From Chloroflexota bacterium (lineage in GTDB: Bacteria > Chloroflexota > Anaerolineae > JAAYZQ01): a stretch of 64,000 nt of DNA. The DNA lies in the NCBI GenBank assembly GCA_018606645.1, contig JAGVRI010000005.1:50629-114628 (forward strand), in the 5' to 3' direction. Every line of letters starts with the position of its first letter. Within the stretch, counting starts at the first letter, position 1. A program made the translations under genes and the position numbers. Under the pieces are notes generated by a model. The model was given only the letters and a program-made list of their open reading frames with translations. It was not told where the DNA came from and did not search any database. Below, piece after piece: positions 32,675-64,000 of the stretch.

Positions 32675-33050
32675 CCTTTCCTCCCTTTAATCAAGTTTCT
32701 TTCATACGGTTTCCGGATGCACCAGCAACTAGAAGATCAACCCCGATACGATCACCCCCTTCCCAAGGATCACTCCAGAAAAAAATGAATACGCCCTCAG
32801 ATGCACTACTAACACTAACACTGCGAACGATAGCTGGATCCGGTTGGATTGCGGACGGTTTGGAGTCCAGGCACCGTAACCGAAACTGGTTCAACAAGAC
32901 AACAGTTGCCCAGGCAGCATATCCTGCATCATTCAGAATACAAAATGCTATTTTGTGTTTGCGCCATTATATCATAGCCGTCGGGGCTTGTCAAGTATGG
33001 CGCGATAAAATTTTGGGGACACCCGAACCTCCGTTTCGCACGTCATAGAT

Positions 33051-33899: not shown

Positions 33900-35297
33900 A
33901 TGGTGAGACGAACAGATTATGACGTGATCATTGTAGGGGCTGGTCCGGCCGGCATTTTTGCCGCCATGGAGATCTCTCAATCAGTGCGTTGTCGGATGTT
34001 GATGCTGGACAAGGGGCCTTCTCTGAATAAGCGCCGATGCCCGGCCCGGGAGAAGGGCCGCTGCATGAAGTGCGCCACCTGTGCCCTGGTGACCGGTTGG
34101 GGAGGGTCGGGAGCTTTCAGCGACGGGAAACTCACCCTGACCACCCAGGTAGGGGGGTTACTGGCCGAGATCCGGGGAGAAGAAGAGGCAGCACGACTGG
34201 TGCATCAGGTGGATGATATCTGGGTGCGCTTTGGAGCCGATGGAGAACCGTACAGCGGTGATCTGGACCGTATCGAAGAGATCGCCCGACGGGCCGCCCT
34301 GGCCGGACTGCGGTTGCAGCACTACCCGATCCGCCATCTGGGCACTGAGCGCAGCGGCGACATCCTGGGAGCGATGTATCTGGAATTGATCAGCCGCGGG
34401 GTCGAGGTCCGAACCGGTACCGAAGTGACTCATATCTTGCACAGCGATGGAGTAGTCATTGGCGTGGAGACGGCGAACGGCGAGCGGCTGACCAGTTCAT
34501 ATGTGGTGGTGGCTCCCGGTCGGGAGGGGGCCGATTGGCTCACTCAACTGGCCCGGGAACTGAACCTGAGCCTGAGCATCAACCCGGTTGATATTGGCGT
34601 CCGGGTGGAGCTTCCCGCTCAGGTCTTTGCCCCACTGACCGATCTGCTCTATGAACCCAAGTTCGTCTACTTTTCCTCCGCGTTCGATGACCGGGTGCGG
34701 ACCTTTTGCGTCTGCCCCTATGGTGAGGTGGTCACCGAATGGGCCGGCGACGTGATGACCGTGAACGGTCACTCCTACGCCCATCAAAAGACAGAAAATA
34801 CCAATTTTGCCGTGTTGGTCAGCAAGAACTTTACCGAACCGTTCAAGGAGCCGATCGCCTATGGTCGCTATATTGCCCGGTTGGCGAACCTGCTGTCAGG
34901 CGGGATCATCGTCCAGCGCCTGGGTGATCTGCGCGCCGGCCGGCGCACCACCGCCCAACGCCTGGAGCGATGTATCACCCGTCCTACCCTGAAAGAAGCC
35001 ACCCCTGGAGATCTGAATCTGGTATTGCCCTATCGCTACGTGGTGAACATTCTGGAGATGATCGACGCTCTGGAGAAGGTAGCCCCTGGCGTCGCTTCCA
35101 GACATACCTTACTCTACGGCGTCGAGGCCAAATTCTATTCCTCACGTCTCAAATTGACCCGGGACCTGGAGACCGAGGTGCGTAATTTGTTTGCCGCCGG
35201 CGATGGGGCCGGGGTCACCCGAGGGTTGGTCCAGGCATCTGCTTCGGGTCTGATCGTGGCTCGCGCGATTTTGGAGCGTCTCAAGGAAGCCGGTTGA
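33900..35297 (+). CDS. FAD-dependent oxidoreductase (COG2509-like uncharacterised FAD-dependent dehydrogenase)
   Basis: DYDVIIVGAGPAGIFAAMEI Rossmann motif and a Cys-rich insert (CPAREKGRCMKCATC). 465 aa. Confidence 0.65.
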   Translation: MVRRTDYDVIIVGAGPAGIFAAMEISQSVRCRMLMLDKGPSLNKRRCPAREKGRCMKCATCALVTGWGGSGAFSDGKLTLTTQVGGLLAEIRGEEEAARLVHQVDDIWVRFGADGEPYSGDLDRIEEIARRAALAGLRLQHYPIRHLGTERSGDILGAMYLELISRGVEVRTGTEVTHILHSDGVVIGVETANGERLTSSYVVVAPGREGADWLTQLARELNLSLSINPVDIGVRVELPAQVFAPLTDLLYEPKFVYFSSAFDDRVRTFCVCPYGEVVTEWAGDVMTVNGHSYAHQKTENTNFAVLVSKNFTEPFKEPIAYGRYIARLANLLSGGIIVQRLGDLRAGRRTTAQRLERCITRPTLKEATPGDLNLVLPYRYVVNILEMIDALEKVAPGVASRHTLLYGVEAKFYSSRLKLTRDLETEVRNLFAAGDGAGVTRGLVQASASGLIVARAILERLKEAG

Positions 35298-53389: not shown

Positions 53390-53436
53390 TTGACAAACGT
53401 TTGTCTTTGTGCTATACTGGAAGACAAACGTTTGTA
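53390..53436 (+). promoter_or_regulatory. promoter (TTGACA -17 nt- TATACT) bracketed by two LacI-type palindromic operators (GACAAACGTTTGTC at 53392-53405 and GACAAACGTTTGTA at 53423-53436)
   Basis: The first palindrome is a perfect 14 bp with a central CG and overlaps the -35. The second has 13/14 matches and lies downstream of the -10 (53413-53418). The LacI-family gene start follows 24 nt later. Confidence 0.7.
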
Positions 53437-60071: not shown

Positions 60072-61055
60072 ATGACCGTCCGCGTTGGGATTGTCGGGTG
60101 CGGCAATATGGGCCGGACCCATGCCACTATCCTTCAGCAAGACCCGCGGGTCACCCTGGTCGGGGTGACCGATCTGGACCCGGACCGGGCGCGGGAACTG
60201 GCCGCAGCCACGGCCAGCCGGGCCTTCCCCAGCCTGGAGGCGCTCCTGGACGCCGAGATCGAGGCCATCTACATCACCACTCCCAACACCCAACATGTGC
60301 CGGCCACGCTGGCCGCGCTGGAGCGGAACATCCATGTCTTTTGCGAGAAGCCGATGGCCACCTCCCTGGCGGAGGCCCGGCAGGTGTTGACCGCCGCTCA
60401 GGCGAGCCAGGCCGTCTATCAGGTCGGCCACAACCGGCGCTTTGCTCCCGTCTACCGCTACCTGAAACAGCAGATCGAAGCCGGGCTGGTACCCTACCTG
60501 GCGAATGCCAAACAAAACGACGGCGACTGGCTCAACCCGCCATGGATCACCGATCTATCGCTCACTGGCGGCTTTCTCTACGAGTCGAGCATCCATCTAC
60601 TGGATATGCTCCGCTGGCTGATGGGCGAGGTGGTCAGTGTGCAGGCGCGAGCCAAAGCAAACGTCTACGACGTGCTGAACGATTTTGCCATTCTGCTGAC
60701 CTTTGTCGGGGAGCGGTTTGCCGTCTTTTCCTCGTCGGCCCATGCCTCGTGGGCCTTTCCGTTCGAGCATCTGGAGATCGTGGGCGAGCACGCCTTTGTC
60801 CGCAGCGAAGAGTTGAGCCGGGTGGTCCACTCCCCGGGACTGGAACAGGAGGTGCGCATCGTGGATTACCGCCAGGTGCCGCATGCTGACCGGTGGGGCT
60901 ACCGGGAAGAAGACCGCCGCTTCATCAGCGCCTGCCTGGGCGAAGCGCCGCCAGCGGTGGATGTCCTGGAAGCCTACCGGGCCATCGAGTTGTGCGAGGC
61001 CTGCTACCTGAGTGCCGCTAACGGCGGCGTCGAGGTGCGCCTGCCATTGGTCTGA
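60072..61055 (+). CDS. Gfo/Idh/MocA-family NAD(P)-dependent oxidoreductase
   Basis: VRVGIVGCGNMGRTHA Rossmann motif and the conserved EKP motif (FCEKPMA). Confidence 0.85.
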   Translation: MTVRVGIVGCGNMGRTHATILQQDPRVTLVGVTDLDPDRARELAAATASRAFPSLEALLDAEIEAIYITTPNTQHVPATLAALERNIHVFCEKPMATSLAEARQVLTAAQASQAVYQVGHNRRFAPVYRYLKQQIEAGLVPYLANAKQNDGDWLNPPWITDLSLTGGFLYESSIHLLDMLRWLMGEVVSVQARAKANVYDVLNDFAILLTFVGERFAVFSSSAHASWAFPFEHLEIVGEHAFVRSEELSRVVHSPGLEQEVRIVDYRQVPHADRWGYREEDRRFISACLGEAPPAVDVLEAYRAIELCEACYLSAANGGVEVRLPLV

Positions 61056-61252
61056 CCCTACTACCCTGGCGGCTGCCGGTCCAAGCGCTGTTGCGTTCTC
61101 CGTTGGAATCGTGGCGGCGAGGCATTCCGGGTGACTAACTGCCGCCTGAATCGCCGCGGATTGACCAGAACCACCTGGCCTGAACCACCGTTCCTGGGAA
61201 TGCCTCGCCCCAGGCCGTACAACAACCTTCATTCTTCTTTCACAAAAAATGC

Positions 61253-61281
61253 TTGACAATCGAACATTTGTTCTGTATAAT
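61253..61281 (+). promoter_or_regulatory. SOS promoter with a LexA box (CGAACATTTGTTCT, GAAC-N4-GTTC type) inside a TTGACA -17 nt- TATAAT spacer
   Basis: TTGACA at 61253-61258, CGAACATTTGTTCT at 61261-61274 and TATAAT at 61276-61281. Confidence 0.7.
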
Positions 61282-61315
61282 AGATTTGGGCTTCCATACT
61301 GCAGGATGGGGAGAC

Positions 61316-61765
61316 GTGAGCAGAGCGCACAAGCGCCAGCGACAGCGGCAACTGGAGACGACCATAGCGGCCATCCAACGCCGTTATGGCCCCTGGGCGT
61401 TGATCCGAGGAGGCCCCCAGGCCGCCGGTTCGGCGGCCATCCCCTATATCCCCACCGGTTTCCCGGCCCTCGACCGCGCTCTGGCCATCGGCGGCCTGCC
61501 CAAAGGGCAGGTGTGCGAGCTGGTCGGACCGACCACCTCGGGCAAGACAACGCTGGCTCTCAAGTTCCTGGTCCAGGCTCAGGCGGACGAAGGGGAGGTG
61601 GGGTACGTGGACCAGGCCCTCTACTTCGACCCGGACTATGCCTATCGCTGCGGATTGGACCTGTCCCGTCTGGTGGTTGGGCGGCCGCAGGAAAGGACAC
61701 ATGTTCATCACCCTGGAGGACGAAGAGGGGCTGATCCACCTCATTGTGCGGCCCGATACCTTTGA
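61316..61765 (+). pseudogene. imuA: truncated RecA-fold ImuA-like (SOS mutagenesis cassette) gene. Homology covers about 61316-61694; the frame then runs into unrelated sequence.
   Basis: The GTG start is after GGATGGGGAGAC. The N-terminus RQRQLETTIAAIQRRYGPWALIRGG ... IPTGFPALDRALAIGGLPKGQVCELVGPTTSGKTTLALKFLVQAQADEGEVGYVDQALYFDPDYAYRCGLDLSRLVVGRPQE matches the RecA/ImuA core through the Walker A region. About 40 unrelated residues follow before a stop, whereas full-length ImuA/RecA is at least 230 aa. Confidence 0.6.
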
Positions 61766-61895
61766 GCGATACCGGGAAGTGCTGCGCGATGCGCCGTTGG
61801 TGAAGGTGGAGGGCCAACTCCAGCGACAGGGAAGCGGGGTGAGTGTGCTGGTAGCCCGCGCCTGGCGGTTATCCCCAGACCATGCGGTGGGATAA
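61701..61895 (+). pseudogene. dnaE2: C-terminal fragment (last ~65 codons) of an error-prone DnaE2-type DNA polymerase III alpha subunit
   Basis: MFITLEDEEGLIHLIVRPDTFERYREVLRDAPLVKVEGQLQRQGSGVSVLVARAWRL matches the OB-fold/C-terminal tail of DnaE/DnaE2 (consensus f.tLEDetG...v.vwp..fe.yr..l.......v.G.lqr.g.v..lva). It is in a different frame from imuA' and lacks the preceding ~1000 codons. Confidence 0.55.
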
Positions 61896-62148
61896 GGACT
61901 TGCGGATGGGGCAGAGTCTATTGACACGGCGAATATGACGGTGAACGAGAGCCGTCGGACTCACTCTATCGAGGGCAAGAGCATCCGTCACATCCAGCGC
62001 GAGACGAGACATCTCGTCAGGCTCATGATTCAAGGGGCGAGTGGCCGGGCAACGCGTGTCCGTATCAATTTGCTAACATGTAAGAGCGAGCACGTGCGAG
62101 AAGCCATAACGCTCTGTCCAATCTATTTGGTGTTGCTCAGCTTGGTGG

Positions 62149-62574
62149 CTATGGACCGGGCTTCTTCCACATGATGCGGTAGGCTGACTCAATACCGGCC
62201 GTGGGGTCGTCCATGGTTTCGAAGGATAACATCTCCCACCCTTCACTTCCTTTCTGGTTGATGTACTCATTTAGGTGTCTGCGCCGACACTCCTGGATCG
62301 ACAGGAGTTCGGCGTAATCTGCGTCTCCGAGGGACATCATATCCATTTGCTCCATCACTAGTTTTCCAAATAGGTCCTCGCTGATTGGGCATTGTAGCTC
62401 ATAATTCTGGATGTCATAGAAATAGGTCCAAGGCTGGGGAGTGGAGGTCACGCATGGAATTGCGTCAACAGGCAGCGCTGAGGGCTGGGCCTGATTGCCA
62501 AAAAACGAAGGTTGAACGTTACAGCTGCAAATGACAAACAGAATGCACACTAGAAACAAGATTCTTTTTCTCAT
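62149..62574 (-). CDS. hypothetical lipoprotein
   Basis: MRKRILFLVCILFVICSCN signal peptide with a lipobox Cys. 141 aa. GC content is about 50%, against about 63% for the window. Confidence 0.55.
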   Translation of the reverse strand: MRKRILFLVCILFVICSCNVQPSFFGNQAQPSALPVDAIPCVTSTPQPWTYFYDIQNYELQCPISEDLFGKLVMEQMDMMSLGDADYAELLSIQECRRRHLNEYINQKGSEGWEMLSFETMDDPTAGIESAYRIMWKKPGP

Positions 62575-62631
62575 ATCTCGCTATCTCCTGATGCTTGGCT
62601 GACCGGATACCTCGATTTGATTTCAGTTTTG

Positions 62632-63402
62632 TCAATGGTTGAAGCCAACACTCTCCGCAGATAAGCCAATACGACTCAGAAGCGCATTCCGAGCAGGCAT
62701 GTACTCTCGGTAATACCACGTCAGTGCCTCCTGTCCGGCTCTATCGGCCGCGGCCATATGGTCATAGAATTGGTCAGGGAACAACAGTGCACCAACCCGC
62801 TCGTGATGGTATATTATCACATTGGAAGCAACTACCTGAAATGCGAGGTGCATGCCCTCGGCCTCGTCGGGGACAGCCATTTCATCGAGCCTCTTGATTA
62901 AGGGGTCTAGTTTGTCCACGTAGGTTTGCGAGGCAATCCCAGCTTCTCCAGGAAAGCTTCCCCATATCTCGTTCGCGATCGTGGCAAACTGCTTCAGATA
63001 GGTCACAAGGGCCTGGTCCACCAGTGTCTTGCTGGGCTTGGGCGTTGGAGAAGGGGTTGGCCTGGGAGTGTCGGCCGGTTCAGTTGTGTTCGTCGGCGGG
63101 AGAGGTGTCTGCGTGGGCGTCTCAGTCGGCATTGCTGTTTCAGTTGGCGGAGGCGTGGTCGTGTTTGTAGGTTCTGGTGTAGCTGTGTCCGTTGGCATTA
63201 GGGTGGGGGTGTCTGTGGGAATGGGGGTATAAGTCGGGCGGAGTGTCGCAGCGAGTTGGGAAACCAGCCGCTCCGTGGGCTCAGCCGTCAGCGATGATCC
63301 GAAGTAGATGGCAAGTCCCACAACGGTCGCTAGCGCCATAAAAGCGACGCAGCCTACCACAAACCCTACAACACCCACAACAACGAGCATCCGTCTGTTC
63401 AT
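62632..63402 (-). CDS. membrane-anchored protein with a Pro/Thr-rich low-complexity linker and a C-terminal domain of unknown function
   Basis: The start was chosen at MNRRMLVVVGVVGFVVGCVAFMALATVV (signal anchor). It has about 75 residues of TPxPT-type repeats. The longer ORF to 63597 has a non-hydrophobic N-terminus. Confidence 0.55.
   Translation of the reverse strand: MNRRMLVVVGVVGFVVGCVAFMALATVVGLAIYFGSSLTAEPTERLVSQLAATLRPTYTPIPTDTPTLMPTDTATPEPTNTTTPPPTETAMPTETPTQTPLPPTNTTEPADTPRPTPSPTPKPSKTLVDQALVTYLKQFATIANEIWGSFPGEAGIASQTYVDKLDPLIKRLDEMAVPDEAEGMHLAFQVVASNVIIYHHERVGALLFPDQFYDHMAAADRAGQEALTWYYREYMPARNALLSRIGLSAESVGFNH
63025..63246. repeat. coding low-complexity Pro/Thr-rich repeat region (PTDTPT / PTETPT / TPPPTET units)
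   Basis: Repetitive ACN/CCN codon array inside the 62632-63402 gene. It generates the spurious Gly/Val-rich antisense ORF 63029-63232. Confidence 0.7.
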
Positions 63403-63574
63403 GTTGCCTGCTCTCCTGGTCTGGATAGTCTGGTTTTCATTTGGTTTCCATAGAGGATTAGGGTGCGACACCTGCGCGTCACCCGCGCTGCGAAGTGCGG
63501 CGGAGCGGATGAAGCGCTTGTTTAGCGTGGTGGCCCATGAAACTGGACATTTTTGAAGCCGTTTTTGCTGAACG

Positions 63575-63640
63575 TCAACAGAGGTCTTCGAGCGCAAGGC
63601 GGGCTTTGAACTCCGGTTTGAAGTTTCGCCGCTTGGCCAT
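63575..63640 (-). mobile_element. remnant of an IS-family transposase orfA (first 21 codons only: MAKRRNFKPEFKARLALEDLC followed by a stop)
   Basis: The peptide matches the canonical N-terminus of IS3-type OrfA HTH proteins (M.KRR.FS.EFK...L). It has a strong RBS (AAGGGGGAGACATA-ATG) but terminates after 21 codons, and no transposase body or inverted repeats were identified. Confidence 0.4.
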
Positions 63641-64000
63641 TATGTCTCCCCCTTTCCTGGACCCATTGTACATTGACTAGCGCACCTGTCCAGTTTTTGG
63701 GGGTCGGTACAGTAACTACATTCGTCGCTGAGCCATCTCGGTCCGGAGGCCCATGAGCAACTCTGCTTTAACCGGAAGACCTCTGCTTAACTCCCTGTCC
63801 ACAAAACCAGGGGAAGATCAGATCATGCATTGCTGCCAGCACTCAAGGAAGGTAGAAACACAGAGAACGCGAAGGCGGCAGTTCAAGATGCCCATCCAGT
63901 GCCTCTCCTAAGAACACGGTGAGGCGAAGAGTGTCGTAGGATAGTGACCAATGGTCAATAGTGCCCCTTCGCACGAACTGAGCATCACCTCTGAAGTCCA

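What the first reader, a model, noticed from the sequence alone, without database searches (positions are those of the whole stretch)
61253..61895. LexA-box SOS promoter driving a decayed imuA'-dnaE2' mutagenesis cassette remnant
A textbook promoter (TTGACA-17-TATAAT) has a Gram-positive/Chloroflexi-type LexA box CGAACATTTGTTCT exactly in the spacer. The first gene behind it matches the RecA-fold ImuA N-terminus through the Walker A region and then loses homology at about 61694. Seven nucleotides later, in another frame, the sequence encodes the last ~65 residues typical of DnaE2/DnaE, ending in the characteristic ...VEGQLQRQGSGVSVLVARAWRL tail. This looks like an imuA-imuB-dnaE2 SOS mutasome cassette that suffered an internal deletion of about 4-5 kb. 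The regulatory region is retained but the cassette is inactivated.
Basis: partly seen in the sequence, partly recalled or inferred. Interest (0 to 1): 0.7.

Follow-up and report, generated by a model that had tools for sequence, protein, structure and literature searches.

The report
Deleted SOS mutagenesis cassette remnant
This is the leftover of a DNA-damage-induced mutagenesis operon: the promoter, the repressor site, the first 126 codons of the first gene and the last 67 codons of the last gene survive, and about 4.9 kb between them has been cut out, so it is an ordinary dead gene cluster rather than a new system.

Summary

- **Promoter and LexA box.** A perfect TTGACA-17-TATAAT promoter lies at 61253-61281. 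Its spacer carries the palindrome CGAACATTTGTTCT (61261-61274).
- **First gene fragment.** From GTG 61316 the sequence encodes residues 1-126 of a short RecA paralogue. It matches RecA positions 2-117 and has an intact Walker A motif.
- **Second gene fragment.** At 61691-61693 homology switches, in another frame and with no filler, to the last 67 codons of an error-prone polymerase DnaE2 (residues 966-1025 of 1026).
- **What is missing.** Every Chloroflexota relative whose contig reaches far enough, apart from three partial loci, has an uninterrupted cassette here. The cassette is RecA-like gene, catalytically dead Y-family polymerase (ImuB-like), an 85-aa DUF6504 gene, then dnaE2. The two homology blocks lie 4.8-5.1 kb apart in those relatives.
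- **Regulation.** All eight relatives checked keep a GAAC-N4-GTTC box upstream. In seven it lies within or just after a TTGACA/TAnAAT promoter.
- **Consequence.** The fusion is out of frame: 23 missense codons, then a stop at 61765.

The first gene scores much higher as RecA-like than as canonical ImuA. The DnaE2 homology starts directly at the junction, not seven bases later.

An assembly artefact cannot be excluded without reads but is unlikely. This is an ordinary pseudogene of low novelty.

The parts
61253..61258 (+). -35 hexamer TTGACA
   Evidence: Read directly; 12 of 12 promoter match. The same hexamer sits upstream of the orthologous gene in 7 of 8 related loci.
61261..61274 (.). LexA-type SOS box CGAACATTTGTTCT (GAAC-N4-GTTC palindrome) in the promoter spacer
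   Evidence: GAAC-N4-GTTC is conserved upstream of the gene in L001-L008, within or just after the promoter in 7 of them. The motif type is described in PMC4951493. LexA binding itself was not tested.
61276..61281 (+). -10 hexamer TATAAT
61308..61313 (+). Shine-Dalgarno-like GGGGAG, 2 nt before the GTG start
   Evidence: Read directly. The start position coincides with the N-termini of the relatives in the alignment. L006 also has a closely abutting purine-rich stretch before its start.
61316..61693 (+). 5' fragment (codons 1-126) of the RecA-like (ImuA-like) first gene of the cassette; Walker A GPTTSGKTT is intact
   Evidence: It is 63% identical to residues 4-120 of the 212-aa L003 protein. 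Homologues are 173-222 aa (ignoring those cut by contig ends or frameshifts) and continue with a conserved ..LAM.EAL..SG.LAAL segment that is absent here.
61691..61693 (.). Deletion junction, with 1-3 nt of possible microhomology and no filler DNA
   Evidence: Left-side homology with the closest relatives runs to ...GGCCGCAGGA. Right-side homology begins at AAAGGACAC.
61694..61765 (+). Out-of-frame read-through of ORF1 into dnaE2 sequence: 23 missense codons, then TGA
   Evidence: ORF1 and the dnaE2 tail are in different frames.
61692..61895 (+). 3' fragment of dnaE2: the last 67 codons (the OB-fold end) plus the native stop
   Evidence: NF004225 positions 973-1028 of 1047; 57-70% identity to the same stretch of nine relatives.
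61701..61895 (+). 64-aa ORF starting at a lineage-specific ATG, with AGGA/AAGGA created at the junction just upstream. It has been called as a gene in a public NCBI record.
   Evidence: P0029 is 100% identical and sits on a 308,977-bp NCBI contig. Relatives have CTG or GTC at the ATG position, and L002 has an indel just before it.

Best explanation
The locus is a pseudogenised SOS mutagenesis cassette in a genome that is probably from the Chloroflexota.

The ancestor carried a LexA-repressed operon of four genes:
- a RecA-like accessory protein (an ImuA analogue);
- a catalytically dead Y-family polymerase (ImuB-like);
- an 85-aa DUF6504 protein;
- the error-prone polymerase DnaE2.

A single illegitimate deletion of about 4.9 kb joined codon 126 of the first gene to codon about 966 of dnaE2, out of frame and with at most 1-3 nt of microhomology. 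It removed the rest of the RecA-like core (Walker B and the DNA-binding loops), all of imuB, the small gene and about 94% of dnaE2.

What remains is an apparently intact damage-inducible promoter. It would drive a transcript encoding a 149-aa truncated product and possibly a 64-aa OB-fold peptide. The mutasome function is lost at this locus.

Shown: the homologies, the junction, the size of the gap, and the conservation of promoter and box in relatives. Inferred: LexA binding, transcription, the deletion mechanism, and that the deletion is recent.
For: - Homology of the two fragments.
- An uninterrupted four-gene cassette in L002, L006, L007, L008, L024, L029, L031 and L034, and as far as the contig reaches in about 15 shorter loci.
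- The Y-family gene of the relatives lacks the residues at DinB D8, D103 and E104, so it is ImuB-like.
- The DnaE2 of relative L007 scores 1183 bits against the NF004225 cut-off of 939.
- The two blocks lie 4779-5126 bp apart in relatives (measured from window positions 61680 to 61692) and are adjacent in the window.
- The junction was resolved against the closest relatives.
- No other imuB or dnaE2 similarity exists in the 64-kb window.
- The box and promoter are conserved across L001-L008.
- Of the columns that are identical in all 7 relatives compared, the RecA-like part differs at 3 of 48. The tail has no in-frame stop. Both fit a recent deletion.
- GC content of the remnant (0.61-0.66) matches the upstream flank.
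Against: - Only one assembly of this genome is available. The exact junction was not found in the metagenome collection, and neighbouring proteins gave no exact look-up hits, so the deletion has no independent confirmation.
- The closest relative is only 74% identical at protein level and none is syntenic. The ancestral sequence at the breakpoints is therefore inferred.
- A perfect promoter and box over a dead gene could also mean the remnant is retained for a reason.
Confidence: 0.88

Rival explanations
1. Assembly artefact. The genome carries an intact cassette, and the join at 61691-61693 is a mis-assembly, a chimeric join, or a minority deletion variant promoted to consensus.
For: There is only one assembly. 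The exact 29-mer across the junction is absent from the metagenome collection. The related loci L001 and L002 come from assemblies with obvious frameshift errors, so assembly errors do occur in this kind of data.
Against: The two sides share at most 1-3 nt at the join and no repeat. Overlap or k-mer assemblers do not collapse sequence without a shared repeat. The join lies inside a 64-kb window of a 308,977-bp contig, with normal composition on both sides.
Confidence: 0.06
2. Functional remnant. The SOS promoter is retained because the truncated RecA-like peptide or the 64-aa OB-fold peptide has a new damage-induced role, for example capping RecA filaments or binding Y-family polymerases. The truncated peptide keeps the N-terminal oligomerisation helix and strand plus the P-loop.
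For: The promoter and box are perfect. The RecA-like fragment is no more diverged than its relatives are from each other (64.0% against 63.9%), whereas the tail is (63.6% against 74.0%). A new ATG with an AGGA-type ribosome-binding site lies at the junction. The RecA N-terminal motif is a known interaction module (PMC6511836).
Against: The fragment stops at the equivalent of RecA residue about 121, before Walker B and loops L1 and L2, so most of the core sheet is missing (together with established knowledge of RecA structure). It ends in 23 missense residues. No other genome with the same arrangement was found. The divergence contrast rests on 61 aligned residues and 7 relatives, so it is marginal.
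Confidence: 0.05
3. Not a deletion. ORF1 is a complete short protein or a fragment of the true recA, and the OB-fold ORF is an unrelated small gene.
For: ORF1 scores higher against RecA models than against ImuA models. recA is itself normally LexA-regulated.
Against: ORF1 scores 89.5 bits against a RecA cut-off of 325 and is only 34% identical to E. coli RecA. Its nearest homologues, at 56-82% identity, are the first genes of Y-family/dnaE2 cassettes, and they continue for roughly 50-100 more residues. The OB-fold ORF is 57-70% identical to the extreme C-terminus of those same cassettes' DnaE2.
Confidence: 0.01

Closest known systems
LexA-regulated imuA-imuB-dnaE2 (ImuC) SOS mutagenesis cassette (Erill et al. 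2006; Warner et al. 2010; reviewed in PMC3919608, PMC6511836, PMC4951493)
   Same: A LexA box in the promoter, a RecA homologue as first gene, and DnaE2 as last gene. In intact relatives there is also a catalytically dead Y-family polymerase in between. The gene order and the SOS logic are the same.
   Different: In the window only the two ends survive, so it cannot act as a mutasome. In this lineage the first gene keeps a RecA-like Walker A and fails the curated ImuA and ImuA' models. The Y-family protein is short (398 aa) and is followed by a separate 85-aa DUF6504 gene.
Mutasome variants with a stand-alone ImuB C-terminal module (Kyrpidia tusciae type; Timinskas and Venclovas 2019, PMC6511836)
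   Same: The relatives of this locus have an inactive Y-family polymerase, then a small separate gene, then dnaE2. This resembles the described arrangement of PolY, stand-alone ImuB-C and DnaE2.
   Different: The described variants lack imuA, whereas the Chloroflexota cassette has a RecA-like first gene. That the 85-aa DUF6504 protein is ImuB-C is my inference and was not tested. None of this part survives in the window.
Bona fide RecA
   Same: The same fold and N-terminal motif. The fragment is colinear with RecA residues about 5-121, and it sits under a LexA-box promoter.
   Different: It scores far below the RecA equivalog cut-off. Full-length relatives are about 170-250 aa without the RecA C-terminal domain, and they are always found next to Y-family and dnaE2 genes.

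Membership tests
imuA-imuB-dnaE2 SOS mutasome cassette | [quoted passage not shown] | tested here: met
   The GAAC-N4-GTTC palindrome at 61261-61274 lies in the spacer of a 12/12 promoter. The same motif is conserved upstream of the orthologous gene in L001-L008. Binding by LexA itself is not testable with these tools.
imuA-imuB-dnaE2 SOS mutasome cassette | A RecA-homologous accessory gene as first gene | tested here: met
   Only codons 1-126 are present. RecA Pfam E 8e-24; 63% identical to the first gene of related cassettes.
imuA-imuB-dnaE2 SOS mutasome cassette | A catalytically inactive Y-family polymerase gene (imuB) | tested here: not met
   No ImuB similarity anywhere in the window (tblastn). 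It is present and catalytically dead in relatives.
imuA-imuB-dnaE2 SOS mutasome cassette | A full-length DnaE2 polymerase (PHP, polymerase core, fingers, HhH and OB domains) | tested here: not met
   Only residues 966-1025 of 1026 (the OB-fold end) remain. Relatives are full length and pass the NF004225 cut-off.
ImuA (NCBIfam NF033429) and ImuA' (NF058630) | Score above the curated family cut-off | tested here: not met
   Fragment: 39 bits against 150, and 14.4 against 65. The full-length relative L007 scores 48.7 against 150. Faint or weak MT3502_N (PF27531) hits are on record for some homologues.
RecA (TIGR02012) | Score above the equivalog cut-off, and a full core plus C-terminal domain | tested here: not met
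   89.5 bits (fragment) and 126.5 bits (full-length relative) against a cut-off of 325.3. Homologues are 173-252 aa.
DnaE2 / error-prone DNA polymerase (NF004225) | The tail is more similar to DnaE2 than to replicative DnaE | tested here: met
   45.5 bits for NF004225 against 20 bits or less for the DnaE models. It is 57-70% identical to the tails of relatives, and the one relative scanned (L007) passes the DnaE2 cut-off. The fragment itself cannot reach a whole-protein cut-off.
Firmicutes/Actinobacteria-type LexA box (GAAC-N4-GTTC) | The palindromic consensus, positioned over the core promoter of an SOS gene | tested here: met
   Sequence and position. The motif definition comes from PMC4951493. 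That Chloroflexota LexA uses this motif rests on my recollection of work on Dehalococcoides and on the conservation seen. No lexA gene lies in the window.

The most novel reading that the evidence does not exclude
The remnant is not junk. The deletion created an SOS-induced bicistronic unit that is kept because one of its products modulates RecA filaments or translesion polymerases during the damage response. The two products are a truncated RecA-like N-terminal peptide, which keeps the oligomerisation motif and P-loop, and a 64-aa OB-fold peptide with a new ATG and ribosome-binding site formed at the junction.
Probability: 0.05. Interest if true: 0.5.

Novelty: new member of a known kind. Interest (0 to 1): 0.18.

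Why it matters
- **Annotation.** The 64-aa ORF is already called as a protein in a public record, although it is the tail of a deleted polymerase gene.
- **Phenotype prediction.** Unless another copy exists elsewhere in the genome, this organism has lost DnaE2-dependent damage-induced mutagenesis while keeping an orphan LexA-controlled promoter.
- **Pattern in the lineage.** Two other related loci also lack part of the cassette: L003/L004 lack dnaE2, and L005 has the RecA-like gene alone. Together these hint that the cassette is dispensable and repeatedly eroded or split in Chloroflexota.

None of this changes current understanding of the system.

Tried and rejected
- **Exact junction search.** The 29-mer across the junction gave 0 hits in metagenome contigs.
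- **Exact-protein look-ups.** The Gfo/Idh/MocA neighbour and the 149-aa ORF1 product are not on record. P0029 is in the protein collection but its contig could not be fetched. No second assembly was therefore available.
- **Synteny.** The five flanking proteins were searched against all 38 fetched loci with no hit, so no syntenic 'empty or full site' comparison was possible.
- **Rfam.** A search of 60900-62400 at E up to 1 found nothing.
- **Solved structures.** A search with the 85-aa small protein found nothing.
- **Literature.** 'DUF6504' and 'dnaE2 + pseudogene + imuB + deletion' returned no papers. Erill et al. 2006 (PMC1326238) is not held.
- **Longer microhomology.** I considered the GCGGCCGC octamer at 61681-61688 as the deletion site, because relatives have CAGCGGCCGCC 8 nt before the right breakpoint. 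I rejected it. The closest relatives have GGCCGCAGGA natively on the left side, and the spacing would need a second 5-nt deletion.
- **Second box.** The CGAAC-N4-GTTC site at 34653 lies inside a 465-aa ORF (33900-35297) and was treated as chance.
- **SOS genes in the window.** A search with LexA and RecA sequences written from memory found only the fragment itself.

Full report
**Observation.**
- Reading the sequence shows TTGACA at 61253-61258, a 17-nt spacer, and TATAAT at 61276-61281.
- The consensus scan scores this 12 of 12. Sites with at most one mismatch occur 3 times in the window against 0.05 expected.
- The spacer contains CGAACATTTGTTCT (61261-61274), a perfect GAAC-N4-GTTC palindrome. 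Within the window the motif count alone is weak evidence: 2 found against 0.39 expected, and 7 of 100 shuffles reach 2.
- GTG at 61316, preceded by GGGGAG, opens a 149-aa ORF that ends at 61765.

**What the two coding pieces are.**
- *ORF1.* Residues 9-126 match the RecA profile at positions 2-117 of 321 (TIGR02012, 89.5 bits; Pfam RecA E 8e-24). They match the ImuA model only weakly: NF033429 scores 39 bits against a cut-off of 150, and ImuA' NF058630 scores 14.4 against 65.
- Against solved structures, ORF1 aligns with RecA residues about 5-121. It therefore contains the N-terminal oligomerisation helix and strand and the Walker A motif (GPTTSGKTT). It stops before Walker B and the L1 and L2 loops; that placement rests on established RecA structure.
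- *The tail.* In another frame, 61692-61895 matches the error-prone polymerase model NF004225 at positions 973-1028 of 1047 (E 2.8e-12). Replicative DnaE models score 20 bits or less. The tail also carries the OB-fold Pfam domain.

**Relatives.**
- A protein search with ORF1 residues 1-127 found 28 homologues at 56-82% identity. Apart from those cut short by contig ends or frameshifts they are 173-222 aa, and sources that name them mostly call them RecA or RecA/RadA.
- Their genomic contexts, and 32 further loci from genome and metagenome scans, show a consistent operon: RecA-like gene, Y-family polymerase (398 aa), an 85-aa gene, and a 1026-aa DnaE2.
- The genome hits above 60% identity are all Chloroflexota metagenome-assembled genomes (Chloroflexia, Anaerolineae, Anaerolineales). 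The window is therefore probably from that phylum (inference).
- In relative L007 the DnaE2 passes the NF004225 cut-off (1183 against 939 bits), and the small gene hits DUF6504.
- The Y-family protein has the DinB catalytic positions D8, D103 and E104 replaced (the DinB sequence and its catalytic residues are from my own knowledge). It is therefore ImuB-like.

**The deletion.**
- Against these cassettes the window retains residues 4-120 of 212 of the RecA-like protein and residues 966-1025 of 1026 of DnaE2. Nothing else of the cassette appears anywhere in the 64 kb.
- At DNA level, window 61335-61680 aligns to L001 8014-8356 (79% identity), and window 61692-61852 aligns to L001 13251-13411 (76%). 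The equivalent points are 4779-5126 bp apart in six relatives.
- The closest relatives (L016, L022) read ...GGCCGGCCGCAGGAC on the left side, and the window reads ...GGGCGGCCGCAGGAA. Native left-hand sequence therefore runs to 61692.
- The right-hand sequence in relatives is ...GCC|AAA/AAG GGN CAC, which corresponds to the window from 61692.
- The junction is therefore at 61691-61693, with 1-3 nt of possible microhomology and no inserted DNA. This is the signature of a simple illegitimate deletion.
- Past the junction ORF1 reads the dnaE2 remnant in the wrong frame for 23 codons, up to the TGA at 61763-61765.

**Regulation.**
- Upstream of the first gene, all eight Chloroflexota loci examined carry GAAC-N4-GTTC.
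- In five of them (L001, L002, L003/L004, L006) the box lies in the spacer of a TTGACA-N16/17-TAnAAT promoter, as in the window.
- In L007 and L008 it lies just downstream of the -10 hexamer.
- In L005 it lies 159 nt upstream of the start, next to a TTGACA, with no full promoter match.
- The motif is the Firmicutes/Actinobacteria type of LexA site, and the cassette is a core member of the SOS regulon (PMC4951493; PMC3919608; PMC6511836).
- LexA binding and damage induction at this locus are inferred, not shown. No lexA or true recA lies in the window.

**Age and state of the remnant.**
- The RecA-like fragment differs from its relatives at 1 of 43 columns that are at least 90% conserved among 29 relatives. 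It differs at 3 of 48 columns that are invariant in the 7 loci that also have a dnaE2 tail.
- The tail differs at 5 of 27 invariant columns. It is 63.6% identical to those relatives, which are 74.0% identical to each other. The RecA-like part shows no such excess (64.0% against 63.9%).
- This hints at relaxed constraint on the tail, but the numbers are small.
- Neither piece has acquired stops or indels, and the promoter is perfect. The deletion therefore looks recent.

**Rivals.**
- *Assembly artefact.* This cannot be excluded, because only one assembly exists. However, the join has no shared repeat that an assembler could collapse, and it sits inside a long contig.
- *Functional remnant.* This reading is permitted by several observations: the intact promoter, the well-kept RecA-like fragment, and a lineage-specific ATG at 61701 with an AGGA/AAGGA ribosome-binding site formed at the junction. 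No other example of the arrangement was found, and the truncated core is unlikely to fold.
- *Complete short protein or true recA.* This is refuted.

**Verdict.** This is an ordinary deletion pseudogene of a known, widely distributed SOS mutagenesis cassette. Its value is mainly for annotation and for predicting that this organism lacks DnaE2-dependent mutagenesis at this locus.

Noticed in passing
L002 8001-13290; L006 2534-8212; L007 1009-6414; L008 9992-15383; L024, L029, L031, L034: The intact Chloroflexota cassette has four genes. They are a RecA-like gene with a conserved Walker A, a short (398-aa) catalytically dead Y-family polymerase, a conserved 85-aa DUF6504 protein (...CNRWRIHTRWW...WREY.KV.T..G.LC..Y.DL..G.W.LAR.YD), and DnaE2. 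It looks like ImuB split into a PolY core plus a stand-alone ImuB-C-like module, but with an ImuA-like gene present. The variants described in PMC6511836 do not combine these. No paper mentioning DUF6504 was found, and there is no solved homologue.
   Followed up: partly
L005 10001-10600; L003 4558-6641 (= L004): Other incomplete cassettes occur among the relatives. L005 (a 2.15-Mb contig of a Chloroflexia genome) has the RecA-like gene with a LexA box 159 nt upstream, but no imuB or dnaE2 within 10 kb. L003/L004 have the RecA-like gene, imuB and only the second half of the small gene, with no dnaE2. These could be split cassettes or independent erosion.
   Followed up: partly
window 61116-61128 and 61197-61209: A perfect 13-nt inverted repeat (GGCGAGGCATTCC / GGAATGCCTCGCC) with 68 nt between the arms lies between the Gfo/Idh/MocA gene and the SOS promoter. 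As RNA, 61105-61225 folds at -50.2 kcal/mol (z = -3.2 against shuffles). No T-run follows, so it is not a classical terminator.
   Followed up: partly
window 63575-63673 (- strand), and 62200-62800: A 32-aa ORF ends in ...MAKRRNFKPEFKARLALEDLC, which from memory resembles the N-terminus of an IS3-family transposase OrfA and would then be a tiny remnant. It had no Pfam hit. GC content drops from about 0.62-0.66 to 0.49-0.52 just downstream of the cassette remnant. That stretch holds a 141-aa lipoprotein-like ORF (62149-62574, - strand) and a 321-aa Pro/Thr-rich membrane-anchored ORF (62632-63597, - strand), neither with a Pfam match.
   Followed up: no
window 61701-61895: The 64-aa tail ORF exists as a predicted protein in the public collection (P0029, source NCBI, contig of 308,977 bp). 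The ORF1 product does not. The remnant is therefore only half-annotated, as a stand-alone small protein.
   Followed up: yes
window 32966-32994 (- strand): This is the second perfect TTGACA-17-TATAAT site in the window. A one-mismatch site lies at 53390-53418 (+), immediately before the ORF that starts at 53409.
   Followed up: no
L001 8001-13436 and L002 8001-8739: The related cassettes from sample ERZ25039603 are broken into many short ORFs (L001) or carry a frameshift in the RecA-like gene (L002), while remaining colinear with intact cassettes. The contig naming suggests a long-read assembly, so these are more likely sequencing indels than true pseudogenes.
   Followed up: no
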